Shown here one piece after another: positions 10,589 to 60,436 of a stretch of 64,000 bases of DNA. Below the pieces are notes generated by a model. It was not told the origin of the DNA, ran no database searches, and saw nothing but the letters and a program-made list of their open reading frames with translations. This stretch comes from an uncultured Alphaproteobacteria bacterium. Lineage in GTDB: Bacteria; Pseudomonadota; Alphaproteobacteria; RF32; CAG-239. The first letter of the stretch is position 1. Each line of letters opens with the position of its first letter. The stretch lies in the NCBI GenBank assembly GCA_944392835.1, contig CALXYB010000008.1:4821-68820 (forward strand), written 5' to 3'. The position numbers were made by a program, and so were the translations under genes.

Positions 10589-10622
10589 TTTGTGCCCTTT
10601 CGTTAACAATTTAAACAAAAAA

Positions 10623-23006: not shown

Positions 23007-23630
23007 CTACCCTAATCTAATCAGCGGATATTTTTCGCTTCGGGCATCGGGAAGTTCATAATGCCACCATTCATGCAATCTTGGAACCGGAACCAAGCCA
23101 ATGTCTTCCATCAGTTTTCGCAACTCGTTGCGGTTGTTAATGGCTTCCGGCATATCAGGATTGGTATAATTATGCGAGGCTTGTTTTAAGTAAGCAAAAA
23201 AGCCTTGCAAATTGCCCGATTGCACTTCCTTCGCAAAATGCTCGTCATAAGCATCTACCAAAGTTGGATAGACAAGCTCCTTGCCGTCTTTTTCTACCAG
23301 AGCAACATCTACGGCCGTAGCACGGCAATGCGGTGAACGTGAAGCATCGGCAATAAAAAAGCCATCTTGCGGAATGAGTGCAAATAATTTTTCATGAGCC
23401 TCTACCGGACGGCAAGCATCATAAATTTTGAGCTTGCGCCCCGTCTTGTCCAGATAAGGTATCAGTCTTTGCAGAGCTTGCCACAAATTCGGATGAACAT
23501 AGGCTTGATTTCCCCAACCTAAATCCGCATAAACAGCAACACCTGTCATATTATGCTCTGTTCCAGCATACATTAAATCTATGATAAAATGCGGGTCGGT
23601 GATTTTTACCAAGCCATCCAAATTATTCAT
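23007..23630 (-). CDS. D-alanyl-D-alanine dipeptidase (peptidase M15D, VanX/DdpX-like)
   Basis: SRSPHCRATAVD and EWWHYE Zn-ligand motifs. Confidence 0.7.
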   Translation of the reverse strand: MNNLDGLVKITDPHFIIDLMYAGTEHNMTGVAVYADLGWGNQAYVHPNLWQALQRLIPYLDKTGRKLKIYDACRPVEAHEKLFALIPQDGFFIADASRSPHCRATAVDVALVEKDGKELVYPTLVDAYDEHFAKEVQSGNLQGFFAYLKQASHNYTNPDMPEAINNRNELRKLMEDIGLVPVPRLHEWWHYELPDARSEKYPLIRLG

Positions 23631-34925: not shown

Positions 34926-35438
34926 TTATTTGTAGTAATCGCGTGGATTACGAGAGCAACTTTCTAAAAGATTTTTTCCCGATTTTGCTCCCTGCCAACC
35001 TCTACGATTTGCTTCCCAATCATCTGATGATGCTTGAATTCCATCTTTCATTACTCCATACGGAAATTCTCGTGCTGTACTTAAAGTTTTTGCAACAAAT
35101 TCTCCCCATTTTCCCCTTTTAGCGGCTTCATAATTTGCTTTACAATGAAAAAATTTATCATTTCCTATAGTGGCATCTTCTTCCATCTCTTTTTTATTTT
35201 GCACAAAGTCATAAAATGGAGCTAATAACCCCGTTCTTGTTTTTCCTGGATAATTAGATTTATTTTTCTGCATATATTCATTGAGATGAGCCTCTGTCTT
35301 TTTTCCCCAATTTTCAGAAATATTTGATTTTTTTGTTCTATATGTTTCTAAATAATCCTTTTTACTATTTTCAATATTATCAATAGAAAATTTTTTAGAA
35401 GGATCTTCTTGTATAATATATCTTATTAAATTACTCAT
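34926..35438 (-). CDS. serum amyloid A (SAA) domain protein with N-terminal MSNLIRYIIQEDP tag
   Basis: IGNDKFFHCKANYEAAKRGKWGEFVAKTLSTARE and DDWEANRRGWQGAKSG align closely with the vertebrate SAA core ([34 protein letters not shown] ... ADQAANEWGRSG). Start trimmed to ATG 35438 with AAGGA RBS. Confidence 0.65.
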   Translation of the reverse strand: MSNLIRYIIQEDPSKKFSIDNIENSKKDYLETYRTKKSNISENWGKKTEAHLNEYMQKNKSNYPGKTRTGLLAPFYDFVQNKKEMEEDATIGNDKFFHCKANYEAAKRGKWGEFVAKTLSTAREFPYGVMKDGIQASSDDWEANRRGWQGAKSGKNLLESCSRNPRDYYK

Positions 35439-35477
35439 TTCTTTTTCCTTATTCTTTGTTAATTTTAGATACAAAAA

Positions 35478-36091: not shown

Positions 36092-37348
36092 TTAACGTTC
36101 TTTTATTTTATTTTTCATAAAAGTATTAGAAAATTGACAAAATCCACCACATTTTATCCCTTCTGGTGAATTATTGACATCACAATCCTTGCATGCCTCT
36201 TGTGTTTTTAATCGTGAGCGCAATGTATAGTCTAGCTCTTGTAGCAATGCTTCAGGTGTATACTTTTCAATTGGCCCTTTCTTATGCTTACGATCCATAT
36301 GACAAACTAACAGACGACCATTTACATCAATGTTTATTAGTTGACGAATATCACAACCATAATACCTTGATTCTTGTATTTTATCTGCTAAATGGACGGT
36401 GTTGTGAAAAACATGCGGATTATTTTTGTGTTTTTCATAAATGCTCCTCATATCAACATTCTGCAATTCATTATTAGCAGCGGCTCCTGCAATTATTGTT
36501 GGACGGATAAATAAATTTATTTCAAATGGTTTTAAATATTCAACTAATCTATCAATACCAGGTTCATTATCTTGATTGACTGTACATAACAAAGAACAAT
36601 TTATGCCATTTTCTTTTAATATCTTAATTCCTTCTATATCTTTTGCAAAAAGTCCTGGTCTTTTTCTACTTTTGTCATGTAATTCCCCGTATGAGTCAAT
36701 ACTTATAATTATATCACTTGAACTTTTTAATGAATTAATAGTTTTTTTATCTAATGAAGACAAATACTCTCCGTTAGTTACAATTGTATATAAAAAATTT
36801 TCTTTATTAACAAAATCACAAAGTTCAGATAGATCTTTTCTAAGCAAAGGCTCACCACCTAAAATTTCGAGTCTAGTTATTCCTAATTTTTTTAAGTGCT
36901 TGATTCTTTTTTTCAAAGTATCCAGAGAAGGCGGAGGTGTTGGAATTTCTGCTTTATAACAAATATCGCAATTACACTGGCAAGCATCTGTAATTTCAAT
37001 TCTGCCATAATAAGGCAAGTCATTATTCAAACAGTGAACTTTCTTAAAAGAATTGGGATGATTAGTTTGTTCTATTAGTTCATGACTGAGTAACTTCTGA
37101 ACTATAGATTTAGGCATTCCATTCAGATTAAAAATCGGTTGTTGAAGAATTTCTACCATTTCATTATCCAGAAACAAAACACTATTTATTGTTTTTCCTG
37201 ATATAGCCAACGTTCCATTAGGAGATATTCTGAGTAAGCTATTCTTCATAATAGAGTACGTTTCTGTGCCTATATAAACAGAGGTATCTTCTTTAATAAA
37301 CTCTTTTTTACATGGAACAGCTCGACTGTATAAATTTGTTACTTGCAT
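36092..37348 (-). CDS. radical SAM enzyme with C-terminal SPASM/twitch domain (peptide- or protein-modifying maturase-like)
   Basis: CQCNCDIC (CxxxCxxC). C-terminal Cys cluster CHMD...CKDCD...CGGFC. About 130-aa N-terminal extension, possibly substrate recognition. Start trimmed to ATG 37348 with AGGGG RBS. Confidence 0.75.
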   Translation of the reverse strand: MQVTNLYSRAVPCKKEFIKEDTSVYIGTETYSIMKNSLLRISPNGTLAISGKTINSVLFLDNEMVEILQQPIFNLNGMPKSIVQKLLSHELIEQTNHPNSFKKVHCLNNDLPYYGRIEITDACQCNCDICYKAEIPTPPPSLDTLKKRIKHLKKLGITRLEILGGEPLLRKDLSELCDFVNKENFLYTIVTNGEYLSSLDKKTINSLKSSSDIIISIDSYGELHDKSRKRPGLFAKDIEGIKILKENGINCSLLCTVNQDNEPGIDRLVEYLKPFEINLFIRPTIIAGAAANNELQNVDMRSIYEKHKNNPHVFHNTVHLADKIQESRYYGCDIRQLINIDVNGRLLVCHMDRKHKKGPIEKYTPEALLQELDYTLRSRLKTQEACKDCDVNNSPEGIKCGGFCQFSNTFMKNKIKER

Positions 37349-37413
37349 TTCATGGCCCCTAAGCGAGTTATTTTTACATAAAAACAATTAACAGTAATAT
37401 TTTTATCAAAAAA

Positions 37414-37444
37414 TGTCAATATTTTGTCAAAAAAAATATTGACA
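37414..37444. promoter_or_regulatory. perfect 12-bp inverted repeat (TGTCAATATTTT-N7-AAAATATTGACA) in divergent promoter region
   Basis: Read directly from the sequence between the rSAM gene and the kinase-HIT-AlaRS-like operon. Candidate operator. Confidence 0.45.
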
Positions 37445-37591
37445 CAGCAAATTATTAACGATATATTAACACAAAAAAAATGCAGTAAATTAAATAATTA
37501 ATTACACAAAATTGTAAATTTTATATAACTTCTAGCAAAATTAATCTTATTTCTTATTAATTTTTTCTAAATTAATATTGTAAAGGTAAAA

Positions 37592-38197
37592 ATGAAGAAC
37601 ACAATAATCTATTTAATTGGAGGCCCCGGAGTTGGCAAACAAACTATTGCTAAAGAAATTCAAAAAAAGCAATCTTTTACTTTAGTGGATAATCATTCGT
37701 ATACAAATGCCATTTTTTCGATATCAAAAAATTATTCTCATCCTAAACACGAAGAATACAGACTAAAAGTACGCAATATTGTTCTTGAAGCTATGGGCGA
37801 AATTTGTCCCAAAGGCGAATCTTTTATATTTACAAATGTAATATCTTTGGGCGAAGAAACTTCATATTATAAGCCAGTTGAAAATCTTGCTAATACACGA
37901 CGCTCCTTATTTATTCCTGTAATGTTATTATGCGAAATGAAAGAGAATCAAAAAAGAATAGCTAATCCTTTTCGCAAAAAATTTTTGAAAACAATAAATC
38001 CCGAAGCAGTCCAACAAATTGCGAACTTAGGACTGCCGGAGATAGAACACCCTAATCTTTTACGTTTAGATGTTACTAAGCTATCTGCAGCAGAAGCTGC
38101 TCTACAAATTATAACGCATGTTAACCATATTAGAAAAAAACAAAATGGTTATTATTCTAAATTCTCAACAAAAGCCAATGGAGGGGCAAATTTATGA
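37592..38197 (+). CDS. P-loop NTPase / small-molecule (nucleotide) kinase-like protein
   Basis: Walker A GGPGVGKQT at N-terminus. About 200-aa size, typical of AAA_33/CPT-like kinases. Stop overlaps next start (ATGA). Confidence 0.55.
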   Translation: MKNTIIYLIGGPGVGKQTIAKEIQKKQSFTLVDNHSYTNAIFSISKNYSHPKHEEYRLKVRNIVLEAMGEICPKGESFIFTNVISLGEETSYYKPVENLANTRRSLFIPVMLLCEMKENQKRIANPFRKKFLKTINPEAVQQIANLGLPEIEHPNLLRLDVTKLSAAEAALQIITHVNHIRKKQNGYYSKFSTKANGGANL

Positions 38198-39006
38198 TAA
38201 AAAATTGCGTTTTGTGCGATGGTTTAAAAGACGAGTTTCAAAATATTAAGGAACAATACCCTGAACTACAGAGCAATGTAACTTTGTTTGAAACTAAAAA
38301 CTTTAAAGTTATTCCAGATAAATTTCCGATTGCACCTAATCACATTATTATTCTGCCGAAAGAACATATTAATACATTTGCTGAATTTAATGAAGCCCAA
38401 GGGCGAGAAGTTGGTTATATATTAGATCGTTTAGAGAACACAACAAAATCTGATAATTTTATTATGTTTGAACACGGAACAAGTAAATCTGAAGAGTTAA
38501 ATACTCCACCACATATTAAGTCAATATTTCATGCACATTTACACTTTATTCCAAATGTTAAATGCAATACAGAGGATATGGATGTTTTTTTTCAACAGAA
38601 AAACGTTCAATTACTTGATTATGATGGTTCTCAAAGAAATATATCTGAGTTTCAAACACAATATTCTGGAAATGCAAATTTAGTCAATTTTATTAAAGAC
38701 AATGTTATATATGAAGATTCTGCTCGTACTTCAGTTGAATCCTATTTTTATATAAAAAGCTCAGATAATACACAATTATTCTTTCCAGAAAGACTTGTAA
38801 CGCCAAGAATTCCATCTCAATTTTTACGAGAGGCTTTAAGTGTGCAATGTGAAACACCTGAATGGAACTGGAAAGTCGGCATGACTGCTGAGGGGCGTCA
38901 AAAATATGGAACGAGAATTGTACAAATGGCCAAATTATTTAAGCAAAATGATTATAATAATATTTTAGTTATGACCAAATTTAAATCTGGTTATGGTAAA
39001 GAATAG
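38194..39006 (+). CDS. HIT (histidine triad) superfamily nucleotide hydrolase/transferase-like protein
   Basis: N-terminal CVLCDG. Histidine triad HAHLHFIP (HxHxHxx). Translationally coupled to the upstream kinase. Confidence 0.55.
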   Translation: MIKNCVLCDGLKDEFQNIKEQYPELQSNVTLFETKNFKVIPDKFPIAPNHIIILPKEHINTFAEFNEAQGREVGYILDRLENTTKSDNFIMFEHGTSKSEELNTPPHIKSIFHAHLHFIPNVKCNTEDMDVFFQQKNVQLLDYDGSQRNISEFQTQYSGNANLVNFIKDNVIYEDSARTSVESYFYIKSSDNTQLFFPERLVTPRIPSQFLREALSVQCETPEWNWKVGMTAEGRQKYGTRIVQMAKLFKQNDYNNILVMTKFKSGYGKE

Positions 39007-39015
39007 GATAAAAAA

Positions 39016-40119
39016 ATGAAAATAAAAGATATGCCAAGATTTAATAGAAAAGAAAGTCATTTTCATATGCAAAATATGATTGATGGTTTTCTTAATTACT
39101 TTCAGGAACATTCTTGTATAAAACATGAACCGGTTAAAATCTCATCAGGGATTGATCCATCTGTTCGCTTTATTGGCTCTCACATCAGTGTTTTAAAGCC
39201 TTATTTTTTAAATGACAACATTCCTACAGGAGGATATGTTATGTCACAGCCATGTATTCGTACACGAAATTTAAAAAATTATGAAAATGATGATTTTTAT
39301 CCCAATTGGGGATCATATTTCCCAAGTCTTGGAATACTGACTAAACCTGAAAGATTGGAGGATATTACAAAACAAACTTATAGCTTTATTCAAGAGCAGT
39401 GGAATATTGATCCTCACGATATAAGAATTCGTATTAGTGCTAATGATACAGATTTGATGGATCTAGCTCATAGTATATTCAAGTCCGAAATGTTTGAAAT
39501 AGACACCATGCAACCAAAATATTATCGCCACAAACTTGGTATAGATGGTGTTTGGGGGCGTAATTTCAATCTTGCTTTACGTGATTATGGAAAAGATACT
39601 TTTTCAGACATTGGAAATGTTATTATTTTGGAAAATCAGGATAAACAGCTTGGAATAGAAATTGCATTAGGAAGCTCTACTGTATTAAAACAAATTTATG
39701 GATTAAGTCATGTCATGGATTGTCACCCTGTATTAGGATTGGATAAGTATATTCAAAATCCTAATATCCGTGTAAAGATGGAAGATACAATTGTTACAAG
39801 TATGGCCTTATATAATGATGGACTAGAACCATCTAATAAGGATAACACTAACCGCTTGATGAAAAAATATCTTGAGATAATGAAAGCTTGCGTTGACAAG
39901 ACAAATCTCCCCAAAGAGGTTCTTAGAAAAACACTATACCAGTATGAATTATTGGAATATGGTTCAAATAATGGAATATATACTCAAAAAATTATGGATT
40001 TTATTTGTTCATCTTCTCAAGCTCAGAAATCAAAAGCTTTAGAAAATAAACAACAATTGGAAGCTTCTCCCTCAAATTCCATAATTTTTACATTATCGCA
40101 AAATAAATTATCTAGATGA
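39016..40119 (+). CDS. alanyl-tRNA synthetase catalytic-domain paralog (truncated, stand-alone class II aaRS-like)
   Basis: FLNYFQEH..DPSVRFIGSHISVLKPYFL..SQPCIRT..NDDFYPNWGSYF aligns with the AlaRS N-terminus FLDFFHSKGH..DPTLLFTNAGMNQFKDVFL..SQRCVRAGGKHNDLENVG..FFEMLGNFSF. 367 aa, versus about 875 aa for AlaRS. Confidence 0.55.
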   Translation: MKIKDMPRFNRKESHFHMQNMIDGFLNYFQEHSCIKHEPVKISSGIDPSVRFIGSHISVLKPYFLNDNIPTGGYVMSQPCIRTRNLKNYENDDFYPNWGSYFPSLGILTKPERLEDITKQTYSFIQEQWNIDPHDIRIRISANDTDLMDLAHSIFKSEMFEIDTMQPKYYRHKLGIDGVWGRNFNLALRDYGKDTFSDIGNVIILENQDKQLGIEIALGSSTVLKQIYGLSHVMDCHPVLGLDKYIQNPNIRVKMEDTIVTSMALYNDGLEPSNKDNTNRLMKKYLEIMKACVDKTNLPKEVLRKTLYQYELLEYGSNNGIYTQKIMDFICSSSQAQKSKALENKQQLEASPSNSIIFTLSQNKLSR

Positions 40120-40269
40120 CATTCCTCCGTAAAATTTTGGGAGCTATGAATATGCTTAAAGGATAGGATTGTGTTGAGTAGCACCTAAGCATTTTACCGA
40201 GAATAACCTCTGAACTTACATCAAGACAACTACTTAAAGAAAAGCGGGAAGTAACATTCCCGCCTTTCT

Positions 40270-41268
40270 TTAATGCTCCAATATTTCAATAATAGGTAAT
40301 TTATCTCCCTGCATTTTCAGTGAAATCTGTCCTCCGATGGGATAGGTAATAATTGGAGTTGTATGACCGATATCAAAATTAGCAATTACTGGTAAATCAT
40401 TTAATGCTTCTTTAGTATGAATAATCTGTTCAAGCAAATTTCTATCAATTTTAGATTCTGGTCTAAAACGACCAATAATCAGTGCCTTAACATATTTAAA
40501 GTCGGCTTGTTGAATTAAAGACTGCAACAAACGGTCAAATAAGACGGCATTCGTTTCTTCATCTTCTTCTAAAAATAGAATAGAGTTTTTCAAAGATGGC
40601 CAGAATTCAGTGCCTTGTAAAGAACTTAAGCAACGGACATGGCCCCCAATCAATTTCCCCTCGAATATATTTCCTTTTCCTTTATTTATAATCCAAAACC
40701 CATTATTGGGTGTAAAATTACGTTTTTCCTGATCCATAAACCATTCATCATTGCTATATTCTTTAGCCGGTGTAACTTGATAGGGTGTATTCTCAATTAG
40801 ACATTTTTTAAAATAATCCAAGGTATAATCAAAACCGTGAAGCATTCCAAAACTTGAAAAATGCGGTCCAGAGTAAGTTACAACATCTGTCTTTGTTGTT
40901 ATTGCATGACAAAGACATGTAATATCAGAAAAGCCACATAAAATCTTAGGATTATTTTTTATAAGTTTATAATCAATTCTATCAATCAATTGATTTGTAT
41001 TAAAACCACCAATAGCTGTTAAAATACCATCAACATTTTTATCCGCAAAAGCCTCATGTAAATCTTCAAGCCTTGAAGCAATTGATGAAGAGACAAAATC
41101 ATCAATCTCATCGCAATGTTTAGAATAGCTTACTGATATCCCCATATCTGCAAAACGTTTCTTTGCGATTTCACGCGTTTCTTCAGAAATGATTTTAAAA
41201 CTTCTTGATGGGGCAATTATACGAATATGCGCCCCTGGTTTTAATTTTTTTGGACAAATCATCAGCAT
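40270..41268 (-). CDS. LD-carboxypeptidase (peptidase S66, MccF-like)
   Basis: Ser nucleophile motif GFSDITCL. His in IGHT. 332 aa. Confidence 0.75.
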   Translation of the reverse strand: MLMICPKKLKPGAHIRIIAPSRSFKIISEETREIAKKRFADMGISVSYSKHCDEIDDFVSSSIASRLEDLHEAFADKNVDGILTAIGGFNTNQLIDRIDYKLIKNNPKILCGFSDITCLCHAITTKTDVVTYSGPHFSSFGMLHGFDYTLDYFKKCLIENTPYQVTPAKEYSNDEWFMDQEKRNFTPNNGFWIINKGKGNIFEGKLIGGHVRCLSSLQGTEFWPSLKNSILFLEEDEETNAVLFDRLLQSLIQQADFKYVKALIIGRFRPESKIDRNLLEQIIHTKEALNDLPVIANFDIGHTTPIITYPIGGQISLKMQGDKLPIIEILEH

Positions 41269-41402: not shown

Positions 41403-42074
41403 TCATCCATATATCTCATCAAGCTTTTGTTCTAGATTTCCGGATTGAACGGCTGGTAACGTGTCAAATTGTCTCAGATTATGCTTTTCTATCTTAATTT
41501 CGTCACTGAAGCCTAAGATATAGGCGATAGCTATGCGATATATAATTTCTGTCGGAGCCAAACCGTAAACCTGATTGGCAAAAATATGTTGTAACCGTTC
41601 TTTATCATTCGGAAAGGCTTGTTTCATCTTCTCGTTTCTGTATAATCTTTTAACAATTTCGGTAATATAAAGACCAGATTTCATATATAAGTCGATAAAG
41701 GTTTTATTAGGATCATCAAAGCATTCAGGATTTTCCGCCAATAAGCTATCTACCATTTCCACAACCACTTTCTTGGGGGTGTATATTTGGTTGGTCTTTT
41801 GGGGTGGAATATAATCGAAAATGTCTTCTTTGCTTGCTTCATCAAAGTAATTTCCTAATTTTCGTTTCAGATTAAGAAACTCTTTAACCTCTGACAAATC
41901 GACATTTCCGGAAACTTCTCCTCCTAAAACTACAGTATTATCTTTAAGCAAAACCTCCACCGAATAGCGGATATTCTTATCTTGAGCCAGCAGGCGATCC
42001 AAAATGTATGATGAAATATAATCTGCTGTTTTATCAGGATGCCCGAGAGAAACAAACTCTGCCGTCTTTTTCAT
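41403..42074 (-). CDS. protein with S-adenosylmethionine synthetase (MetK) N-terminal-domain homology, otherwise divergent
   Basis: SLGHPDKTADYISSYILDRLL...VVLGGEVSG aligns with MetK [21 protein letters not shown]...MVLVGGEIT. Start trimmed to ATG 42074 with AAGGA RBS. The listed upstream extension covers leader hairpins. Confidence 0.5.
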   Translation of the reverse strand: MKKTAEFVSLGHPDKTADYISSYILDRLLAQDKNIRYSVEVLLKDNTVVLGGEVSGNVDLSEVKEFLNLKRKLGNYFDEASKEDIFDYIPPQKTNQIYTPKKVVVEMVDSLLAENPECFDDPNKTFIDLYMKSGLYITEIVKRLYRNEKMKQAFPNDKERLQHIFANQVYGLAPTEIIYRIAIAYILGFSDEIKIEKHNLRQFDTLPAVQSGNLEQKLDEIYG

Positions 42075-42323
42075 AGTTTTTCCTTCATAAAAAAAGCCCG
42101 CAGAATTTAATCTGCAGGCACAAACAAAAAAGGGAACAAGCCTTAAACACAACTCGTTCCCGATTATAGCTATTTTTATAAACTATTTTTCAGTTTTTGT
42201 CTTGTCTGTTTTTGTCGCAACCATAAACATTCATACGTATGTAATCGATAAAAATATCATTGCATACGTACAGAATTTAATTTACTATACGTTTTAGTTT
42301 ATAAAAAATATAAAGGTAAAAAA

Positions 42324-43331
42324 ATGTACGACGGATCAATTTCAAACTATAATAAAATAGAAGAGGATGCCTCCTACCATGAAATTATATCTTTTGAAGA
42401 TGAAAAGGACATTCGCAAACGATATTTAGACGAGCTTGCAAAAAATAAAGATAATTCACAGAAAATATCCGTTCTAAATGTAGCATTGATTAACTATTTT
42501 ATTAAAAAAGATAGATTTGATTTAGCTAAAGATGTGTTAAAAAAACAAACCTCCTTTTGCACAGAAGAACTTATAACATTGTTCGCATCTAAAATTGATG
42601 TAGAAATTCTGAGCAAAACAGACGTAGATTTTATCAATGAAGTTTTAAAATATTTATCGCACATTAAAACGAATAATAACGGACATCATGTAATTCACGA
42701 TTTAAAAGAAAAGATCAAAAAAATTAAAGAGAAAATCAAACAAGAATCAAAGAAAAAAAATGATAAGTATAAAAACAAAGAAACAAAATTATCTACCTCA
42801 TCTCAAAAAAAAGAAAATTTAACAGTAAGTCAGAATAAAGCCGAATCTCCTGAAGAGGCAATATCTTTCTTATCAAAATATATCAGCGAACAGAAACAAA
42901 ATATAAAAACCTTGAATGAAGAAAAACAGCTCATATTATCCCAAGTTAATACTTCTCAGAGAAAATTAGATGATTTAACAAAACAGTTACATACGGTAAT
43001 TCAAGAGAAAAAAGCAAAATCTTTTGAATTAGAAGATATTGAACAAAAATATAATAAGTTGAAAAAAGAAAATGATACTTACAAAATAAAAACACAAAGA
43101 AATGAAGAAGAGTTAGGCAAGAAAATTGAAAGCCTATCAAATAGTATCGATATTCTTAAAGAGAGTCATAAAATTGAAATACAATCTCTAAAAATCAATA
43201 TAAGAAATAAATTGAAAATAAGATATGATGATTTTTTAGATAAAAAAGATGAATTATCAAATAATCAATTGAAAATTTTAATTGCCAATATTTTTGCAGA
43301 CTTAGAATATCTTGGCATTAAATTCAAATAG
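42324..43331 (+). CDS. coiled-coil protein, hypothetical
   Basis: K/E-rich heptad-like C-terminal half. Stop overlaps next gene. Confidence 0.45.
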   Translation: MYDGSISNYNKIEEDASYHEIISFEDEKDIRKRYLDELAKNKDNSQKISVLNVALINYFIKKDRFDLAKDVLKKQTSFCTEELITLFASKIDVEILSKTDVDFINEVLKYLSHIKTNNNGHHVIHDLKEKIKKIKEKIKQESKKKNDKYKNKETKLSTSSQKKENLTVSQNKAESPEEAISFLSKYISEQKQNIKTLNEEKQLILSQVNTSQRKLDDLTKQLHTVIQEKKAKSFELEDIEQKYNKLKKENDTYKIKTQRNEEELGKKIESLSNSIDILKESHKIEIQSLKINIRNKLKIRYDDFLDKKDELSNNQLKILIANIFADLEYLGIKFK

Positions 43332-44748
43332 GAGATTAATTATGGGCTTCTGTGGTATTGATTTTGGAACAACAAATACAGCTATGGTCTATTTTTCAGA
43401 ACACACAGGAATGATATTTGTAGGGGATGAAGAAGAAAATTTACCTTTACCATCTATAGTTGCGTTAAACAAACATACTGGCGAAATCATTGTTGGAAGT
43501 GATGTAAAAAGAAATATACAGAAATATACTAGAGATTATGAAATAGTTTTATCAATTAAGACTGTTTTGGATGATCCTAAACAGGAATGGAATGTTGCTG
43601 GTCGAACATTAAAGCCTGTAGATATAGCCGCAGAAATTTTTAAAACTCTTAAAAACAATGCAACTAAAAGAAAAATAGATATATCAAAAATTGTAATTTC
43701 GGTCCCTATTAATTTTTCATCTGGAAAAAAAATATGCCTTCGAGAAGCTGCCAAAAAAGCCGGATTGGACATCAAAAAATTTGTAAATGAACCTACCGCA
43801 GCATTTTTAGCTCATTATGAGGAGTTAAAATCATTTTCTAAAACAGTTATTTTTGATTGGGGAGGCGGAACTTTAGATATATCTGCATTAGATATTAAAA
43901 ATGGTACTATTAGAGAAATATACACAGATAACATGTATAAAGCGGGAGATAATATAGATAAAGACCTGGCCCGTAGTATTTATGAAAAATCCATAAAAAA
44001 ATATGGTTTGTCGCTTATTCCTTTTGATAAAATAGAAGCCGACGAATATGATGAATTAATCGCAAAAGCAGAATTAGCAAAAATTTACTTATCAAAAGAT
44101 AACCAGAATCGATATGATGATTTTTGCAAAATACAAGGTAAAATACGAGATATTACCGTAACATACGAAGATTTATGTAATATTTCTGAAAATATAGTCA
44201 ATGAAGCTATAAGCAAATTAAATCATGTAATAAGTAAAGCATATAATGAACGAGTGCATTGCATTTTATGTGTAGGAGGCTCCTCAAATCTAAGAAACCT
44301 TAAAGAAAAATTGAGAAAAATTTATGGTGATATCCTGTATTTTCCTGATTTTCCACAATGGGATATAGCAAATGGTGCTTGTATTATAGATGCCTCAAAT
44401 AGAAATAATGTCTATAAACTGGCTTACGATATTAATCTAATTTTATCAAATGGAGATAAATATCCTCTTTTAAAAGAAGGTCAACTCATTCCTTGCAAAG
44501 AATCAAAAATACATTTATCGACTGTTGATTGCTCAGAAAATGCAAATTTTGTATTTCAATTTGGTCAAGATGAATATCATGAAATAACAATTCCTCTTCT
44601 AGGTGGAGTTGATGAGACTTTTGATTTATTCACATATATTGATAACTATTCTGTCTTGCATATAGATATGAAGAATAACAAAATTCAAGAAGATGAAAGA
44701 TACAATATATTTCGATATGAAAAACTAGATTTATGTTACAACGTGTAA
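43312..44748 (+). CDS. Hsp70 (DnaK)-family actin-fold ATPase, stand-alone
   Basis: GIDFGTTNTAMV phosphate-1. DWGGGTLDIS phosphate-2. NEPTAAF connect motif. 478 aa with no DnaK substrate-binding-domain signature. Confidence 0.7.
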   Translation: MALNSNRRLIMGFCGIDFGTTNTAMVYFSEHTGMIFVGDEEENLPLPSIVALNKHTGEIIVGSDVKRNIQKYTRDYEIVLSIKTVLDDPKQEWNVAGRTLKPVDIAAEIFKTLKNNATKRKIDISKIVISVPINFSSGKKICLREAAKKAGLDIKKFVNEPTAAFLAHYEELKSFSKTVIFDWGGGTLDISALDIKNGTIREIYTDNMYKAGDNIDKDLARSIYEKSIKKYGLSLIPFDKIEADEYDELIAKAELAKIYLSKDNQNRYDDFCKIQGKIRDITVTYEDLCNISENIVNEAISKLNHVISKAYNERVHCILCVGGSSNLRNLKEKLRKIYGDILYFPDFPQWDIANGACIIDASNRNNVYKLAYDINLILSNGDKYPLLKEGQLIPCKESKIHLSTVDCSENANFVFQFGQDEYHEITIPLLGGVDETFDLFTYIDNYSVLHIDMKNNKIQEDERYNIFRYEKLDLCYNV

Positions 44749-44757
44749 GGATAAAAA

Positions 44758-45486
44758 ATGTTATCTATAAATTCCAATATCCAGTACAAAAGTAATGTTT
44801 ATATTGTTTCTAGCTCATATAGTCCTTATGATGATTCATCTTTCATTCATCAAGTATATGATGCAAAGAAGTTGAACGAAATAATAAAAAAATCTCGTTT
44901 TGGAGATGTATTGTTGACAAAAGTACAAAGATATATTTTAGAGAAAGATGTAGTTTGTGTTTATGCAAAAAAATTTCTAAAAAGTGAAACAGCGCAATAT
45001 TTCGTTCTGACAAAACACAATGAAGAGAAATGTAAATGCCAAATTGTTGATTGTCCTTTATTTGAGCAATGCCGTCCAAATGAAAAGATTAAAGCTAAAA
45101 CAGAGCAAGAGAGATTTAATAACTTAAGTATTGCTGAGAAAATTGATAATACCCATTATTATCCTATTATGCTAAATTTTGACAGAGTAATTGAGAGATG
45201 TAGCGATAATGCTTTTGACATTATATCTGATATAGATATGACGCAATATCAATATAATGATAATGTGACCTTTTCATATGTTGGAGATGGAAATGGTGCA
45301 AATTGGGACAACTGGGTCGGAGGAAGTGAAGAAAGGTATTTTAGCTCAGAAAAAAAGACAAAAAACATCCCTGTAGTAGATTTAACTTCTGATGTTCAAG
45401 CCTCTAATAACCCTATGTTAGAATACCAAAAAAGACACTTAAATCTAGATAATGAGTTTTTTAAGAAAATAAATAAAACCCCATAA
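44758..45486 (+). CDS. hypothetical protein (third gene of Hsp70-like operon)
   Basis: 10-nt gap from upstream gene. Hairpin terminator overlaps stop (45478-45500). Confidence 0.4.
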   Translation: MLSINSNIQYKSNVYIVSSSYSPYDDSSFIHQVYDAKKLNEIIKKSRFGDVLLTKVQRYILEKDVVCVYAKKFLKSETAQYFVLTKHNEEKCKCQIVDCPLFEQCRPNEKIKAKTEQERFNNLSIAEKIDNTHYYPIMLNFDRVIERCSDNAFDIISDIDMTQYQYNDNVTFSYVGDGNGANWDNWVGGSEERYFSSEKKTKNIPVVDLTSDVQASNNPMLEYQKRHLNLDNEFFKKINKTP

Positions 45487-47137: not shown

Positions 47138-47764
47138 TTATAAATTATCTATATTTTGTTGCAATTCATTTATAAATTTTGAAACATGCCTCCCATCACA
47201 AACAGCATGATGTGCCAAAACAGAAAAAGGAAGTATTGTTTTGCCGTTTTCTTCAATATATTTGCCCATAGTAAAAATAGGCATCAAGTAGTCATAACCT
47301 TGCTTCAAGTTTAAATTGAATGAAGAAAAATGAAGCCATGGTAGCATAGATACATAAAAAATATTAGGAGGACAATTCGGTTTGGCTTCATATTTCATTA
47401 TATTGCCATATTTATTAACATCAGAATTATAATTCCGGCAAAAAGTCTCAAAATCAGGATCATATTCACTCCAAATTCCTGAAAAAGTTTCCGTTTCTTT
47501 GTGAAAAATCGTATATGCCGGATGAACAATATCAAAAAAACCTAAAATTCCATCATCATCAAACATTGTTCGAAATTCTTCATGTTTATTAACAAGTCTA
47601 GCCAATAAATACAGCATTGCTGGGTAAAGTTTTAAACTTTTATTCCTGAGATTGGAAATATCTAAATTAACCGTTATACTAAACGTTGTGGGTACATTGC
47701 TATAAAATTGTTCAAAATATTCTTTACGTTCTCGCTGTTCCATATTGATTGGAGTAAATACCAT
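47138..47764 (-). CDS. catP: chloramphenicol O-acetyltransferase (type A, CatP-like)
   Basis: Collinear high similarity to clostridial CatP (KLYPAMLY, TETFSS, IFTMGKY, HHAVCDG catalytic His motif). 208 aa. Confidence 0.9.
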   Translation of the reverse strand: MVFTPINMEQRERKEYFEQFYSNVPTTFSITVNLDISNLRNKSLKLYPAMLYLLARLVNKHEEFRTMFDDDGILGFFDIVHPAYTIFHKETETFSGIWSEYDPDFETFCRNYNSDVNKYGNIMKYEAKPNCPPNIFYVSMLPWLHFSSFNLNLKQGYDYLMPIFTMGKYIEENGKTILPFSVLAHHAVCDGRHVSKFINELQQNIDNL

Positions 47765-58906: not shown

Positions 58907-60436
58907 TTGAAAATGATAAAAAATGCAGTTTTATTAAGGCGAGTATCGACCGTTATGCAGGAGCGTGATGGTAATTCACTTCAAAATCAATCAGAAATGC
59001 TAACTCAATACTGTGAACGAAAAGAGATGACTATCATTAAAGACGCAGAAATAGTCGAGAGCAGTACCAGAGGCGAACGTAAAAAATTTATGGAAGTCAT
59101 AAAGTTCTGCCAACAACAACGCGGTGGTGTTGCTTTAGTATGTTTGAAGACTGACAGACTGTTTCGAAACTTCAAGAATTATACATTGATTGATGAAATG
59201 CGAAAAAGCGGACAGCTTGAGCTTCACCTGATTCAAGAAAACTTAGTGTTAAATAAAGATTCCAAAGCCGGTGACTTAACCATACTCGGTTTAAATGTCG
59301 TTATGGCTCAAAACTATGCTCTTAGCTTACGAGATAATGTGGTTTACGGTATGGATTATTCTGTCAATCAAGGACGGTGTATGTCGAAAGCTCCAGCAGG
59401 CTATTTAAATATAAGAACACCGGACGGAAAAGCCGCTGTAATTATTGACAATGAACGAGCTCCAATTATTCAGAAACTTTTTGAAGAATACGCAACAGGG
59501 CTTTATTCGGTTAAGGACATGATGAAAAAATGCAAAGAATGGGGGCTTGTCAGTCGGTTTTCCGGTAAACCGTTTGATACAAGCACAATTCACCGCATAT
59601 TAAATAACAAATTCTACATTGGGGAAATGCTGTATAAAGACCAATGGCACAAGCACAATTACGAAACATTGATTGCACCTGCTTTGTTCAAAACTTGTCA
59701 GGATATTATGCACGGTCGCAAACCAGAAGAACCTAAACATTTCAAAACCACCGAAAAGCCCTTTATCTTTCGAGGACTGATAACTTGTGGAGAATGCGGT
59801 TGTATGGTTAGTAGCTACCGCAAAACGAAACCTAGCGGTAGAGAATATGTTTATCTGAAATGTTCGCATTTCAAGGGAAACTGTAACAATCCGCAAGTTA
59901 ATGAAAACGTTGTTTTACAACAAATTGAAGACGAATTGAAAAACTTGTCCGTACCGCAAGAGATAATGGGCTATCTTAAAGCTGATATGGAGAAAATCAT
60001 AAATCGACAGAATGAAGCCCATAACCGTGAAGTCAAAGCCATTCGCAAGAAATACGATGACTGTCAGGATAAAATTAAACGTCTGCGGTCATTACTGCTT
60101 GAGGGATATATTACACCGGAAGAATACCGTGACATGAATGAAGACCTTAAAAATGAGCAGTACGAACTAGAGGGGAAATCAGAATTGTTGACAGAAGCTG
60201 ATGAAAAGTTTTCAATCGCAGTCGCGACAATACTTTCCTTGGGCAATAATGCGTATAAAATCTTTCAGAGTTCGAAAGTAGAAACAAAAAGAGAGATTTT
60301 GCACATCTTACTTTCGAACTTGAAATTGCAAGACCGTAAAATCTCTTATACCTTTAGAAAACCTTACGATTACATCAAGTCTTTAAATAAAAAAATACCC
60401 TCAAAAACTGAGGGTATCGCAATTGGTGATGCTTAA
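58907..60436 (+). CDS. large serine recombinase
   Basis: N-terminal resolvase domain (RRVSTVMQ), recombinase domain, Cys zinc ribbon (CGECGC...C...C) and coiled-coil. Last five codons lie inside the 22-bp direct repeat. Confidence 0.85.
   Translation: MKMIKNAVLLRRVSTVMQERDGNSLQNQSEMLTQYCERKEMTIIKDAEIVESSTRGERKKFMEVIKFCQQQRGGVALVCLKTDRLFRNFKNYTLIDEMRKSGQLELHLIQENLVLNKDSKAGDLTILGLNVVMAQNYALSLRDNVVYGMDYSVNQGRCMSKAPAGYLNIRTPDGKAAVIIDNERAPIIQKLFEEYATGLYSVKDMMKKCKEWGLVSRFSGKPFDTSTIHRILNNKFYIGEMLYKDQWHKHNYETLIAPALFKTCQDIMHGRKPEEPKHFKTTEKPFIFRGLITCGECGCMVSSYRKTKPSGREYVYLKCSHFKGNCNNPQVNENVVLQQIEDELKNLSVPQEIMGYLKADMEKIINRQNEAHNREVKAIRKKYDDCQDKIKRLRSLLLEGYITPEEYRDMNEDLKNEQYELEGKSELLTEADEKFSIAVATILSLGNNAYKIFQSSKVETKREILHILLSNLKLQDRKISYTFRKPYDYIKSLNKKIPSKTEGIAIGDA

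What the first reader, a model, noticed from the sequence alone, without database searches (positions are those of the whole stretch)
40270..41268. MccF-like S66 serine peptidase convergent on the AlaRS-like operon
S66 LD-carboxypeptidases include MccF, the self-immunity enzyme that cleaves the aminoacyl-nucleotide amide bond of microcin C and related compounds. Its placement next to an aaRS-like/HIT/kinase operon supports an immunity or processing role rather than murein recycling. The GC-backbone half of the window shows no peptidoglycan-recycling neighbours.
Basis: partly seen in the sequence, partly recalled or inferred. Interest (0 to 1): 0.55.

Follow-up and report, generated by a model that had tools for sequence, protein, structure and literature searches.

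The report
MccF-clade peptidase paired with AlaRS-like enzyme
This gene encodes a serine peptidase related to the microcin C immunity enzyme MccF, and it is one half of a previously undescribed gene pair with a shortened alanyl-tRNA-synthetase look-alike, kept together across several bacterial phyla, which gives a testable lead to the natural substrate of these peptidases.

Summary
The ORF is real: 40270-41268 on the minus strand, probably starting at 41262 (330 aa). It is an intact S66 serine peptidase. It belongs to the MccF clade, on the BA_5613/Lmo1638 branch (E 1e-102, TM 0.96). True MccF is more distant (TM 0.87) and LdcA more distant still (TM 0.72-0.77; it fails the LdcA equivalog cutoff). 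The catalytic triad is S114/E234/H302. It keeps the MccF-type loop with a Trp that LdcA lacks. Its side-chain pocket residues differ from MccF (R212/E237/E238 against N220/R246/K247).

The main result is comparative. Of 34 informative loci found with the AlaRS-like protein, 32 have this S66 type next to it. These loci come from Patescibacteria, Alpha- and Gammaproteobacteria MAGs and a Calothrix plasmid. One genome fuses the two genes in frame. In a separate S66-seeded sample, all 23 informative S66 genes with the H-x-R-C pocket motif have an AlaRS-like gene nearby, against 5 of 27 without the motif.

No murein-recycling genes are linked. The best reading is that S66 is the dedicated amidase of an aminoacyl-nucleotide pathway built around an AcmF-like AlaRS paralogue. 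Self-immunity is favoured over processing. The substrate is inferred, not shown.

The parts
40270..41262 (-). S66 serine peptidase, MccF clade, 'H-x-R-C' subtype. It is 330 aa from ATG 41262; the mechanical ORF starts at 41268 (332 aa).
   Evidence: Pfam S66 N and C domains. PDB 4e5s at 2.7e-102. AF2 model pLDDT 93, TM 0.96 to 4e5s. Triad S114/E234/H302, loop Trp W176, pocket H210/R212/C213. RBS and start.
40234..40273 (.). Two-way terminator-like hairpin shared by the convergent S66 and AlaRS-like genes.
   Evidence: Terminator scan. Folding energy -20.9 and -24.9 kcal/mol, z -7.5 and -6.5, 0 of 200 shuffles as good. Sequence.
39016..40119 (+). Truncated AlaRS-like protein (367 aa): aminoacylation fold plus helical domain, with no editing or C-terminal domains. 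It is the conserved partner of the S66 gene.
   Evidence: Weak Pfam tRNA-synt_2c hit (24 bits). AF2 pLDDT 90; Foldseek top hits are AlaRS catalytic fragments, E 3e-15, TM 0.70. hhalign to E. coli AlaRS 1-461 gives probability 93%: R69, F90 and N212 equivalents kept, D235 becomes E215, motif-3 Arg lost. Adjacency statistics.
38194..39006 (+). HIT-superfamily protein (270 aa) with an H-x-H-x-H motif (FHAHLHFIP) and a roughly 150-aa C-terminal extension. It is an accessory specific to the alphaproteobacterial lineage.
   Evidence: Pfam DcpS_C and HIT. PDB HIT hydrolases down to 1.7e-06. Only 47 homologues, three of them kinase-HIT fusions.
37592..38197 (+). P-loop kinase-like protein (201 aa). 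Its stop overlaps the HIT start by 4 nt.
   Evidence: AAA_18/AAA_17 below the Pfam cutoff. Weak nucleotide-kinase hits in NCBIfam. Fused to HIT in P0256 and P0258.
36092..37348 (-). Radical SAM enzyme (418 aa from the ATG used in database orthologues; the mechanical ORF runs to 37387). It is divergent from the kinase-HIT-AlaRS-like operon.
   Evidence: Pfam Radical_SAM 7.7e-15. Only generic radical SAM/SPASM and pVip similarity, below cutoffs. Co-occurs with the operon in L001-6, L013-15, L018, L020-21 and L057.
37439..37467 (+). Best sigma-70-like consensus match (11 of 12) in the divergent intergenic region upstream of the kinase gene.
   Evidence: This is a consensus match only; the number of such sites in the region equals chance.

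Best explanation
The gene encodes a cytoplasmic Ser-His-Glu peptidase of the MccF clade of family S66. It works as the dedicated amidase of a small pathway built around the neighbouring truncated AlaRS-like enzyme.

Proposed mechanism. The AlaRS-like protein transfers an alanyl (or similar small aminoacyl) group onto the nitrogen of a 5'-substituted nucleoside or nucleotide. It would do this either from its own aminoacyl-adenylate or, like AcmF in ascamycin biosynthesis, from aminoacyl-tRNA. In this alphaproteobacterial version the fused-type kinase/HIT pair and the radical SAM enzyme supply or decorate the nucleotide acceptor. An adenosine 5'-phosphoramidate-type acceptor is my specific guess. 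The product would be an aminoacyl-adenylate mimic, a potential aaRS inhibitor. S66 binds the nucleotide against its Trp loop, attacks the aminoacyl carbonyl with S114 and splits the aminoacyl-N bond. This protects the producer's own synthetase (self-immunity, favoured) or trims or recycles the compound (processing).

Shown: clade membership, intact triad, MccF-type loop, a pocket motif specific to partnered S66 genes, deep conservation of the gene pair, domain fusions, and absence of murein-recycling linkage.

Inferred: the chemical nature of the substrate, the acceptor, and the choice of immunity over processing.
For: 1. Clade. PDB sequence ranking is BA_5613/Lmo1638 (1e-102 and 1e-97), then MccF (1e-39 and 1e-30), then LdcA (1e-17). 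Fold ranking is TM 0.96, then 0.87, then 0.72-0.77. The LdcA equivalog cutoff is failed.

2. Active site. S114/E234/H302 align with E. coli MccF S118/E243/H311. The MccF-type loop with W176 is present and is deleted in E. coli LdcA.

3. Linkage. In 35 loci seeded with the AlaRS-like protein, S66 lies within 1 kb in 32. Two lack it and one is cut off by a contig end. In 80 loci seeded with S66, all 23 informative H-x-R-C S66 genes have an AlaRS-like gene within 2 kb, against 5 of 27 N-type ones.

4. Fusions. There is an in-frame AlaRS-like-S66 fusion in a Parcubacteria MAG (L042). The AlaRS-like domain is also fused to the other operon partners, a methyltransferase and an HD domain, and to GNAT, the other known class of aminoacyl-nucleotide immunity domain.

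5. Co-inheritance. The Mantel correlation between the S66 and AlaRS-like distance matrices is r 0.82, or 0.70 without the four close alphaproteobacterial loci, p<=0.0005.

6. Orphan retention, as expected of an immunity gene. S66 stays intact beside a deletion scar (HIT aa 1-32 joined to AlaRS-like aa 228-346) in L007-10. It also stays when the cassette is swapped in L011/12.

7. Precedent. AcmF is a truncated AlaRS-like enzyme with D232E that alanylates the sulfamate N of a nucleoside, and a hydrolase (AcmE) reverses it (PMC12945691). The window protein has the same D-to-E change and lacks the motif-3 Arg. MccF cleaves exactly such acyl-N bonds in aminoacyl phosphoramidate and sulfamoyl adenylates (PMC3817062; PMC8323819). 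B. anthracis MccF was crystallised with a ligand whose truncated PDB title reads 'alanyl sul...' (4jvo).

8. Gene layout. E. coli mccF is likewise convergent on its biosynthetic operon.
Against: - No substrate is known for the BA_5613/Lmo1638 branch. I found no paper reporting one.
- The residues that give MccF its Asp/Glu specificity are replaced (N220 to R212, R246/K247 to E237/E238). The loop Trp sits two alignment columns from MccF W186 in MAFFT, although HMMER aligns it with B. anthracis MccF W180.
- No exporter, uptake peptide or MccB-type adenylyltransferase lies nearby.
- A covalent fusion of a ligase-type enzyme with the hydrolase that undoes its product looks like a futile cycle. That favours a sequential biosynthetic role over pure immunity.
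- The accessory genes differ completely between lineages: HIT, kinase and radical SAM here, but HD, methyltransferase and AsnA-like in Patescibacteria. The small molecule therefore cannot be deduced.
- The loci are not phylogenetically independent, so the counts overstate the number of independent events.
Confidence: 0.5

Rival explanations
1. The cluster is a resistance island, not a producer. S66 (MccF-like) and the HIT protein (MccH-like) both detoxify imported aminoacyl-nucleotide antibiotics made by other bacteria. The AlaRS-like protein acts as a decoy, a sensor or a modifying enzyme. Nothing toxic is made by the cluster itself.
For: Stand-alone MccF and MccH homologues confer McC resistance when expressed (PMC8323819; PMC9239234). 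The window island also carries CAT, MBL-fold, GNAT and PPDK_N-type genes. There is no exporter near the cluster. S66 persists alone in L007 and L011.
Against: The AlaRS-like partner is the conserved element (32 of 34 loci), while HIT is confined to one lineage. Fusions of the AlaRS-like domain with S66, methyltransferase and HD domains point to a multi-step pathway rather than independent detoxifiers. The pocket lacks the MccF Asp/Glu-binding residues.
Confidence: 0.15
2. S66 is a biosynthetic partner rather than a protector. One option is that it trims an aminoacyl or peptidyl precursor (for example an Asp/Asn-linked phosphoramidate made by the AsnA-like enzyme in the Patescibacteria operon) to free the amine that the AlaRS-like enzyme then acylates. 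Another is that its acyl-enzyme passes the amino acid on as a transferase.
For: The in-frame AlaRS-like-S66 fusion. Strict same-strand order of AlaRS-like then S66 then AsnA-like, with 20-60-nt gaps, outside the Alphaproteobacteria. An Arg (R212) at the position where MccF reads the acidic side chain.
Against: In the window lineage S66 is transcribed separately and convergently. It survives loss of the AlaRS-like gene. No AsnA-like gene is in the window.
Confidence: 0.2
3. S66 is an ordinary murein LD-carboxypeptidase (LdcA-like) that happens to lie next to the AlaRS-like operon.
For: It belongs to family S66. JGI auto-annotation of some relatives reads 'muramoyltetrapeptide carboxypeptidase LdcA'. 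One orthologue (L007) lies near the PBP1A, M23, S41 and polysaccharide deacetylase genes.
Against: It scores 99.5 bits against the LdcA equivalog cutoff of 378. TM to LdcA is 0.72-0.77, against 0.96 to MccF-like proteins. It has the nucleotide-binding loop that LdcA lacks. Adjacency to the AlaRS-like gene is conserved across phyla and includes a fusion. In L007 the gene still sits beside an AlaRS-like/HIT deletion scar. No ampG, nagZ, ampD, mpl or anmK-type neighbours were seen.
Confidence: 0.05
4. The pair acts on a macromolecule. The AlaRS-like enzyme adds an amino acid to a tRNA end or to a protein C-terminus, and S66 removes it. This would be an aminoacylation/deacylation cycle, possibly tied to RNA repair, given the kinase/HIT pair here and the HD/methyltransferase pair elsewhere.
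For: The AlaRS-like model keeps the helical domain that follows the catalytic core in AlaRS. Kinase-HIT and HD-methyltransferase pairings loosely recall RNA-end-healing enzymes (my own knowledge). One family member carries a receiver domain.
Against: There are no ligase, Hen1-type or nuclease genes. The methyltransferase is a generic class I BioC/UbiE-like enzyme. All characterised S66 enzymes act on small substrates (PMC8323819).
Confidence: 0.08

Closest known systems
MccF, microcin C self-immunity peptidase (E. coli pMccC7-type plasmids; B. anthracis MccF)
   Same: S66 fold and Ser-His-Glu triad. Extra loop carrying a Trp near the active site. Cytoplasmic. The gene is convergent on the operon it serves. 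The proposed chemistry is also the same: cleavage of the aminoacyl-N bond of an adenylate mimic.
   Different: Only 26-30% identical, and it falls in a sister clade. The active-site residues N220 and K247, together with the adjacent R246, are R212, E238 and E237 here. The active-site status of N220/K247 comes from the title of PDB 3tly and from my memory of Agarwal 2012. There are no MccA, MccB, MccC, MccD or MccE genes. The partner is an aaRS paralogue rather than a ThiF-type adenylyltransferase.
BA_5613 (PDB 4e5s/5fd8), 5usd and Lmo1638 (4h1h/4inj): structural-genomics 'MccF-like / member of MccF clade' proteins
   Same: Closest solved relatives: 48% identity in the Foldseek structural alignment, about 50-58% identity between this S66 branch's members in tblastn, TM 0.95-0.96 and the same loop 'SDDxW(Y/F)xDQE'.
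   Different: They carry the 'GGN-x-(S/C)-T' pocket motif, not 'GGH-x-R-C'. In the NJ tree they group with stand-alone genes that lack an AlaRS-like neighbour. I found no published physiological substrate.
LdcA, murein tetrapeptide LD-carboxypeptidase (E. coli b1192; P. aeruginosa 1zrs)
   Same: Family S66, with the same triad (S106/E200/H270 in E. coli LdcA).
   Different: LdcA lacks the roughly 25-30-residue loop. TM is 0.72-0.77. The NCBIfam equivalog cutoff is failed. There is no murein-recycling synteny.
AcmF/AcmE/AcmD of ascamycin biosynthesis (Streptomyces sp. 80H647)
   Same: A truncated AlaRS-like enzyme with the catalytic Asp changed to Glu. It is paired with a hydrolase that removes the alanyl group from an N-alanyl nucleoside (PMC12945691).
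   Different: The hydrolase there is a secreted alpha/beta-hydrolase, not an S66 enzyme. AcmF did not appear among the listed homologues of the window protein, so no sequence-level kinship is shown. The sulfamate-forming genes are absent here.
MccH, HIT-family phosphoramidase immunity protein of mcc-like clusters
   Same: A HIT-superfamily gene sits in the same cluster as an MccF-type gene. HIT enzymes cleave or transfer at the nucleotide P-N/P-O bond (PMC8323819).
   Different: The window HIT protein is 270 aa with a large C-terminal extension. It is translationally coupled to, and elsewhere fused with, a P-loop kinase. It belongs to a tiny family of 47 proteins. It was not compared directly with MccH.

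Membership tests
Peptidase family S66 (LD-carboxypeptidase/MccF superfamily) | Two-domain S66 fold (PF02016 plus PF17676) | tested here: met
   111.8 and 98.5 bits against cutoffs of 25 and 23.7. AF2 model pLDDT 93, TM 0.96 to 4e5s.
Peptidase family S66 (LD-carboxypeptidase/MccF superfamily) | Ser-His-Glu catalytic triad | tested here: met
   S114, H302 and E234 align with E. coli MccF S118/H311/E243 and E. coli LdcA S106/H270/E200.
MccF clade (nucleotide-recognising S66 peptidases) | Closer in sequence and fold to MccF-clade structures than to LdcA | tested here: met
   Sequence E-values: 1e-102 (BA_5613), 8e-39 (B. anthracis MccF), 6e-30 (E. coli MccF), 2e-17 (LdcA). TM-scores 0.96, 0.87 and 0.72-0.77. 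NJ tree.
MccF clade (nucleotide-recognising S66 peptidases) | Inserted 'catalytic' loop with a Trp that stacks on the adenine (E. coli MccF W186, B. anthracis MccF W180) | tested here: inconclusive
   The loop is present and W176 was found in every S66 hit examined (loci L001-L135, seeded with the window protein or its partner). HMMER aligns it with B. anthracis MccF W180. MAFFT puts it two columns before W186/W180. Geometry relative to the triad could not be inspected, because no model coordinates are available.
MccF sensu stricto (microcin C immunity) | Acidic side-chain pocket N220/K247 (with R246), giving Asp/Glu specificity | tested here: not met
   The window protein has R212, E238 and E237 at these positions. 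Active-site status of N220/K247 comes from the PDB 3tly title. Asp/Glu specificity comes from PMC3817062.
MccF sensu stricto (microcin C immunity) | Linkage to an mcc operon (MccA peptide, MccB ThiF-type adenylyltransferase, MccC pump) | tested here: not met
   tblastn of E. coli MccB, MccC, MccD and MccE against the whole window gave no hit at E<=0.01.
MccF sensu stricto (microcin C immunity) | Hydrolysis of processed McC or aminoacyl-sulfamoyl adenosines | not testable with these tools
   This needs an enzyme assay.
LdcA (muramoyltetrapeptide carboxypeptidase) | Passes the NCBIfam equivalog NF008424 | tested here: not met
   99.5 bits against a cutoff of 378.
LdcA (muramoyltetrapeptide carboxypeptidase) | Compact active site without the MccF loop | tested here: not met
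   E. coli LdcA has a gap opposite window residues ~173-196.
LdcA (muramoyltetrapeptide carboxypeptidase) | Synteny or co-occurrence with murein-recycling genes | tested here: not met
   None in the window and none in about 130 related loci, where the recurrent neighbour is the AlaRS-like gene.
AlaRS-like-associated S66 subtype (defined here) | G-G-H-x-R-C motif at window residues 208-213, plus an adjacent AlaRS-like gene | tested here: met
   The window has GGHVRC. In the S66-seeded set, 23 of 23 informative H-x-R-C loci have an AlaRS-like gene within 2 kb, against 5 of 27 N-type loci.
AcmF-like aminoacyl transferases (partner gene) | Truncated AlaRS fold with the catalytic Asp changed to Glu and degraded ATP-binding motifs | tested here: inconclusive
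   The fold is confirmed (TM 0.70). D235 becomes E215 and the motif-3 Arg becomes T222, but the R69, F90 and N212 equivalents are kept. Dependence on tRNA cannot be tested here.

The most novel reading that the evidence does not exclude
The AlaRS-like/S66 pair is the core of an unrecognised, widely spread class of small-molecule toxin-immunity modules. It is found in Patescibacteria, gut Alphaproteobacteria, some Gammaproteobacteria MAGs and a Calothrix plasmid. The aaRS paralogue, without any ribosomal peptide or ThiF enzyme, would build a non-hydrolysable aminoacyl-adenylate mimic, for example an alanyl-phosphoramidate analogue of ascamycin. The H-x-R-C S66 peptidase would be its dedicated antidote. 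In the window lineage the module rides in mobile islands and P2-like prophage cargo slots, so it could serve in inter-bacterial or anti-phage conflict. If so, the natural substrates of the long-orphaned stand-alone MccF-clade peptidases would be products of aaRS paralogues.
Probability: 0.25. Interest if true: 0.8.

Novelty: new variant of a known kind. Interest (0 to 1): 0.62.

Why it matters
Since about 2010-2012 it has been known that most mccF-like genes are not linked to microcin C clusters, and their natural substrates are unknown. This locus shows that one well-defined subtype, with the H-x-R-C pocket, is almost always partnered with an uncharacterised truncated AlaRS paralogue and is sometimes fused to it. 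The AlaRS-like family has about 840 representative clusters at 50% identity with E<=1e-3.

That turns an open question into an experiment: find the product of the AlaRS-like enzyme and test it on the peptidase.

If the product is an aaRS-inhibiting aminoacyl-nucleotide, two things follow. It would be a new route to Trojan-horse-type antibiotics that needs neither a ribosomal peptide nor a ThiF enzyme. It would also be a rare predicted secondary-metabolite function for Patescibacteria. A cultured carrier exists for testing: Calothrix parasitica NIES-267, plasmid2.

Tried and rejected
- **Primary MccF papers.** I tried to read Nocek 2012 (PMC3690760), Agarwal 2012 (PMC3311384) and Tikhonov 2010 (PMC2992228). 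None is held. The roles of N220, K247 and W186 therefore rest on PDB entry titles, one review and my memory.
- **Literature on close relatives and the pairing.** Searches for BA_5613, Lmo1638 or YocD function, or for any described AlaRS-like/S66 pairing, found nothing relevant.
- **Defence-system models.** PADLOC has no model for S66, HIT, kinase or the AlaRS-like protein. The radical SAM protein gave only a generic pVip-level hit (63 bits; NCBIfam viperin 54 bits against a cutoff of 180). I therefore rejected 'viperin system'.
- **Phage carriage.** A scan of viral contigs with the AlaRS-like profile found no relative. The prophage link rests only on the metagenomic loci L011-L015.
- **Calothrix plasmid annotation.** Accession AP018229 is not in the plasmid collection.
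- **'S66 occurs alone near PBP1A' (L007).** I first read this as evidence against linkage. tblastn then showed a HIT/AlaRS-like deletion scar beside it, so I withdrew that reading.
- **Second structure job.** I rebuilt the alignment.
- **Promoter scan.** The number of sites equals chance, so no promoter claim is made.
Full report
**Observation**

The ORF at 40270-41268 (minus strand, 332 aa) is present. It matches both halves of the S66 fold: PF02016 at 111.8 bits and PF17676 at 98.5 bits. An AGGAG lies 6 nt before the second ATG (41262), and all close database orthologues are 330 aa. The real start is therefore probably 41262.

The gene converges on a compact plus-strand operon. The P-loop kinase-like gene (37592-38197) overlaps the HIT-like gene (38194-39006) by 4 nt, and the AlaRS-like gene (39016-40119) follows after 9 nt. 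A radical SAM gene (36092-37348/37387) is divergent from the operon.

Between the two convergent stop codons lies a hairpin at 40234-40273. It folds well on both strands (-20.9 and -24.9 kcal/mol; z -7.5 and -6.5) and has T-rich tails on both sides. This looks like a shared two-way terminator.

**What kind of S66 enzyme it is**

- **Sequence.** Against solved structures the ranking is BA_5613 'MccF-like' and 5usd (2.7e-102), Lmo1638 'MccF homolog / member of MccF clade' (2.9e-97), B. anthracis MccF (8e-39), E. coli MccF (6e-30) and E. coli LdcA (2e-17).
- **Fold.** An AlphaFold model (pLDDT 93, pTM 0.91) gives TM 0.96 to BA_5613, 0.95 to Lmo1638, 0.87 to both MccFs and 0.72-0.77 to LdcA structures.
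- **LdcA test.** The NCBIfam LdcA equivalog is failed by a wide margin: 99.5 bits against a cutoff of 378.
- **Reference alignment.** I fetched E. coli LdcA from MG1655 and a bona fide E. coli mccF from an mcc operon on an ATCC 25922 plasmid, and aligned them with the window protein.
  - The triad is S114/E234/H302, matching E. coli MccF S118/E243/H311 and E. coli LdcA S106/E200/H270.
  - E. coli LdcA has a gap opposite window residues ~173-196.
  - The window protein, like MccF, fills that gap with a loop carrying a Trp (W176, 'SNDEWFMDQE').
  - HMMER aligns W176 with B. anthracis MccF W180. MAFFT places it two columns earlier. The equivalence is likely but not proven.
- **Pocket residues.** N220 and K247 are marked as E. 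coli MccF active-site residues by the title of PDB 3tly. From my memory of Agarwal et al. 2012, not re-read, they and the adjacent R246 read the acidic side chain. Here N220 is R212, R246 is E237 and K247 is E238. MccF proper cleaves only aspartyl and glutamyl adenylates efficiently (PMC3817062).

The enzyme is therefore in the MccF clade by descent and architecture. It is not an MccF by specificity residues and it is not an LdcA.

**The partner gene**

The 367-aa 'AlaRS-like' protein gets only a sub-threshold Pfam hit (24 bits) and no PDB sequence hit. Its model (pLDDT 90) has AlaRS catalytic fragments as top structural matches (E 3e-15, TM 0.70, 13-15% identity).

A profile-to-sequence alignment with E. 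coli AlaRS 1-461 (probability 93%) gives these correspondences:

| E. coli AlaRS residue | Window AlaRS-like protein |
|---|---|
| R69 | kept (R82) |
| F90 | kept (F102) |
| N212 | kept (N201) |
| D235 | changed to E215 |
| motif-3 Arg | replaced (T222) |

This resembles AcmF, the truncated AlaRS-like enzyme of ascamycin biosynthesis. AcmF carries D232E and has lost the activation residues. It uses Ala-tRNA to alanylate the sulfamate nitrogen of a 5'-O-sulfamoyl adenosine, and a separate hydrolase (AcmE) removes the alanine (PMC12945691). AcmF itself was not among the listed homologues, so only an analogy is claimed.

The family has no curated model. It comprises about 840 representative clusters at 50% identity with E<=1e-3, mostly 320-400 aa.

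**Comparative genomics: the main result**

- **Same contigs.** Several contig lengths are shared between the S66 and AlaRS-like hit lists, and the source names of one pair (ACD_9C00301G0005 and G0004) are consecutive, which indicates that the two genes share contigs.
- **AlaRS-like-seeded scan.** Scanning one genome per species with the AlaRS-like profile returned 35 loci. They come from Alphaproteobacteria MAGs (one 100% identical to the window), many Patescibacteria classes, three Gammaproteobacteria MAGs, a Calothrix parasitica plasmid and a Calothrix MAG, and one Methanosarcinales MAG.
  - An S66 gene 50-66% identical to the window's (90-99% in the near-identical alphaproteobacterial loci) lies within 1 kb in 32 loci.
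  - Two loci lack it (L037 and the archaeal L047). One is cut off by a contig end.
- **Orientation.** Outside the Alphaproteobacteria the order is AlaRS-like then S66 on the same strand, usually 20-60 nt apart. In L024, L030 and L076 another ORF separates them by about 0.8-0.9 kb. In the Alphaproteobacteria the two genes are convergent.
- **Fusion.** In Parcubacteria bacterium OLB19 the two are one 692-aa in-frame protein (L042:5245-7323).
- **Patescibacteria-type operon.** It reads HD phosphohydrolase (YedJ-like), class I methyltransferase, AlaRS-like, S66, then an AsnA/AsnRS-core-like class II enzyme.
- **Bridge locus.** One Alphaproteobacteria MAG (L022) has this operon with a convergent S66. 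It links the two layouts.
- **Lineage-specific accessories.** HIT, kinase and radical SAM occur only in the window's lineage. Kinase and HIT are fused in some genomes.
- **Other fusions.** Other members of the AlaRS-like family are fused to a methyltransferase, an HD domain, a GNAT domain and a receiver domain. GNAT is the fold of MccE, the other known immunity enzyme against aminoacyl-nucleotides (PMC4010828). This is suggestive only.

**The converse test**

I scanned metagenomes with an S66 profile (80 loci) and read the residues aligned to window positions 210-213.

| S66 pocket type | Informative loci | AlaRS-like gene within 2 kb |
|---|---|---|
| H-x-R-C | 23 | 23 (22 adjacent; L091 rearranged, 1.9 kb away) |
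| N-type (N-L-C-T and similar, the BA_5613/Lmo1638 type) | 27 | 5 (all 'NLGL', with a divergent 33%-identical AlaRS-like gene) |

- The S66 and AlaRS-like distance matrices correlate. Mantel r is 0.82 over 26 loci, or 0.70 without the four close alphaproteobacterial loci, with p<=0.0005.
- In an unbootstrapped NJ tree, true MccFs are sister to the BA_5613-like group. Within that group the partnered S66 genes form their own clades, apart from the stand-alone clade that holds BA_5613 and Lmo1638.
- These loci are related by descent, so the counts are not independent events. The pairing nevertheless survives phylum-level transfer, a change of orientation, a plasmid, mobile islands and a fusion.

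**Losses are informative**

- An 84%-identical orthologue that looked solitary, near the PBP1A, M23 and S41 genes, sits beside a 148-aa ORF. That ORF joins HIT residues 1-32 to AlaRS-like residues 228-346. It is a deletion scar next to an intact S66.
- In P2-like prophage cargo slots with identical flanks, the kinase-HIT-AlaRS-like-radical SAM cassette (L013-15) is replaced by an HSP70-like / thymidylate kinase / adenosine deaminase / two radical SAM / NUDIX cassette (L011/12). S66 is retained there too.

Keeping the hydrolase after losing the partner is what one expects of an immunity or resistance gene. It also shows that the enzyme has value on its own.

**Context in the window**

The low-GC stretch from about 24 to 64 kb is a mosaic island. 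It holds PPDK_N, MBL-fold, MarR, UDG, GNAT, an SAA-like protein, the cluster itself, a MetK-N/methyltransferase chimera, a coiled-coil/HSP70-like/unknown trio, DUF6362/DUF6291, CAT, an autotransporter and two large serine recombinases.

The higher-GC part carries housekeeping genes such as LysRS, a sigma factor, FTHFS and Fe-ADH.

No ampG, nagZ, ampD, mpl or anmK-type gene was seen. Only an M15 D-Ala-D-Ala dipeptidase-like ORF at 23007-23630 is cell-wall related. There are no mccB, mccC, mccD or mccE homologues in the window. PADLOC has no model for the cluster proteins, and no phage contig carries the AlaRS-like gene.

**Interpretation**

- **Shown.** The gene is an intact MccF-clade S66 peptidase of a distinct pocket subtype. 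That subtype is evolutionarily bound to a truncated AlaRS paralogue and is unlinked to murein recycling.
- **Inferred (confidence about 0.5).** It hydrolyses the aminoacyl-N bond of an aminoacyl-nucleotide-type compound made by the AlaRS-like pathway. Self-protection is favoured, because of the convergent separate transcription (as for E. coli mccF) and the orphan retention.
- **Live alternative.** The in-frame fusion and the strict operon order in Patescibacteria keep a sequential biosynthetic ('processing') role in play.
- **Other rivals.** A pure resistance island (0.15), a macromolecular aminoacylation cycle (0.08) and plain LdcA (0.05).
- **My specific guess.** HIT and kinase generate an adenosine phosphoramidate-type acceptor that the AlaRS-like enzyme alanylates. 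This is speculation. It rests on known HIT chemistry (my own knowledge) and on the ascamycin precedent.

**Verdict**

The enzyme is a new variant of a known kind. The AlaRS-like/S66 module appears undescribed in the literature I could search, and it offers a direct experimental route to the natural substrate of stand-alone MccF-clade peptidases.

Noticed in passing
window 41403-42152 (-): A chimeric ORF. Residues 29-87 match the N-terminal domain of SAM synthetase (MetK, 57 bits). Residues ~109-199 weakly match type II DNA methyltransferases. Two terminator-like hairpins lie at 42096-42161. The same gene (223 aa) accompanies S66 in L001 and L005. It could be a remnant or a phage-type SAM-related accessory gene.
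   Followed up: partly
window 42324-45486 (+): A three-gene cassette: a coiled-coil protein (335 aa), an HSP70/actin-fold ATPase without a substrate-binding domain (478 aa) and an unknown 242-aa protein. There is no PADLOC hit. A distantly related HSP70-like gene also sits directly next to S66 in the swapped cassette of L011/L012. This is a candidate conflict or defence system.
   Followed up: partly
L011:11029-17315 and L012 (metagenomic P2-like prophage): This locus occupies the same flanks as the kinase-HIT-AlaRS-like-rSAM cassette of L013. It carries an alternative nucleotide-centred cassette: HSP70-like, thymidylate kinase, adenosine deaminase, rSAM-SPASM, B12-binding rSAM and NUDIX. That marks a cargo hotspot next to the tail genes gpU, gpX and gpD.
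   Followed up: no
L042:5245-7323 (+), Parcubacteria bacterium OLB19, JZEL01000023: An in-frame 692-aa fusion of the AlaRS-like and S66 domains. A second, distant S66 paralogue (25% identity, no loop Trp) lies 2 kb downstream. L032 has a similar second copy.
   Followed up: yes
L007:11018-11464 (-) (also L008-L010): A 148-aa ORF that joins the first 32 residues of the HIT protein to residues 228-346 of the AlaRS-like protein. It is a deletion scar beside an intact S66 gene.
   Followed up: yes
proteins P0321, P0337, P0359, P0396 (AlaRS-like family) and P0256, P0258 (HIT family): Domain fusions: GNAT-AlaRS-like, AlaRS-like-methyltransferase, receiver domain-AlaRS-like, AlaRS-like-HD, and P-loop kinase-HIT.
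   Followed up: partly
window 34926-35474 (-): A bacterial ORF with a clear Serum amyloid A domain hit (PF00277, 59.5 bits against a cutoff of 30.8). This domain is best known from vertebrates.
   Followed up: no
window 47138-47764 (-): A full-length chloramphenicol acetyltransferase (PF00302, E 2e-73) within the same low-GC island.
   Followed up: no
window 58907-60436 (+) and 61806-63404 (-): Two large serine recombinases (Resolvase, Recombinase and zinc-ribbon domains) in opposite orientation at the right end of the low-GC region. They probably mark the mobile-element boundary.
   Followed up: no
window 23007-23630 (-) and 9677-10618 (-): An M15 (VanX/DdpX-like) D-Ala-D-Ala dipeptidase-like ORF and a VgrG3-like C-terminal domain protein. 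These are the only cell-wall-related hits among the ORFs annotated, and both are far from the S66 gene.
   Followed up: no
window 36092-37387 (-): The mechanical radical SAM ORF starts at a TTG 13 codons upstream of the ATG used in database orthologues (418 aa). The protein has a ~120-aa N-terminal extension and a Cys-rich C-terminus (CKDCDVNNSPEGIKCGGFC) resembling a SPASM-type auxiliary cluster site.
   Followed up: partly
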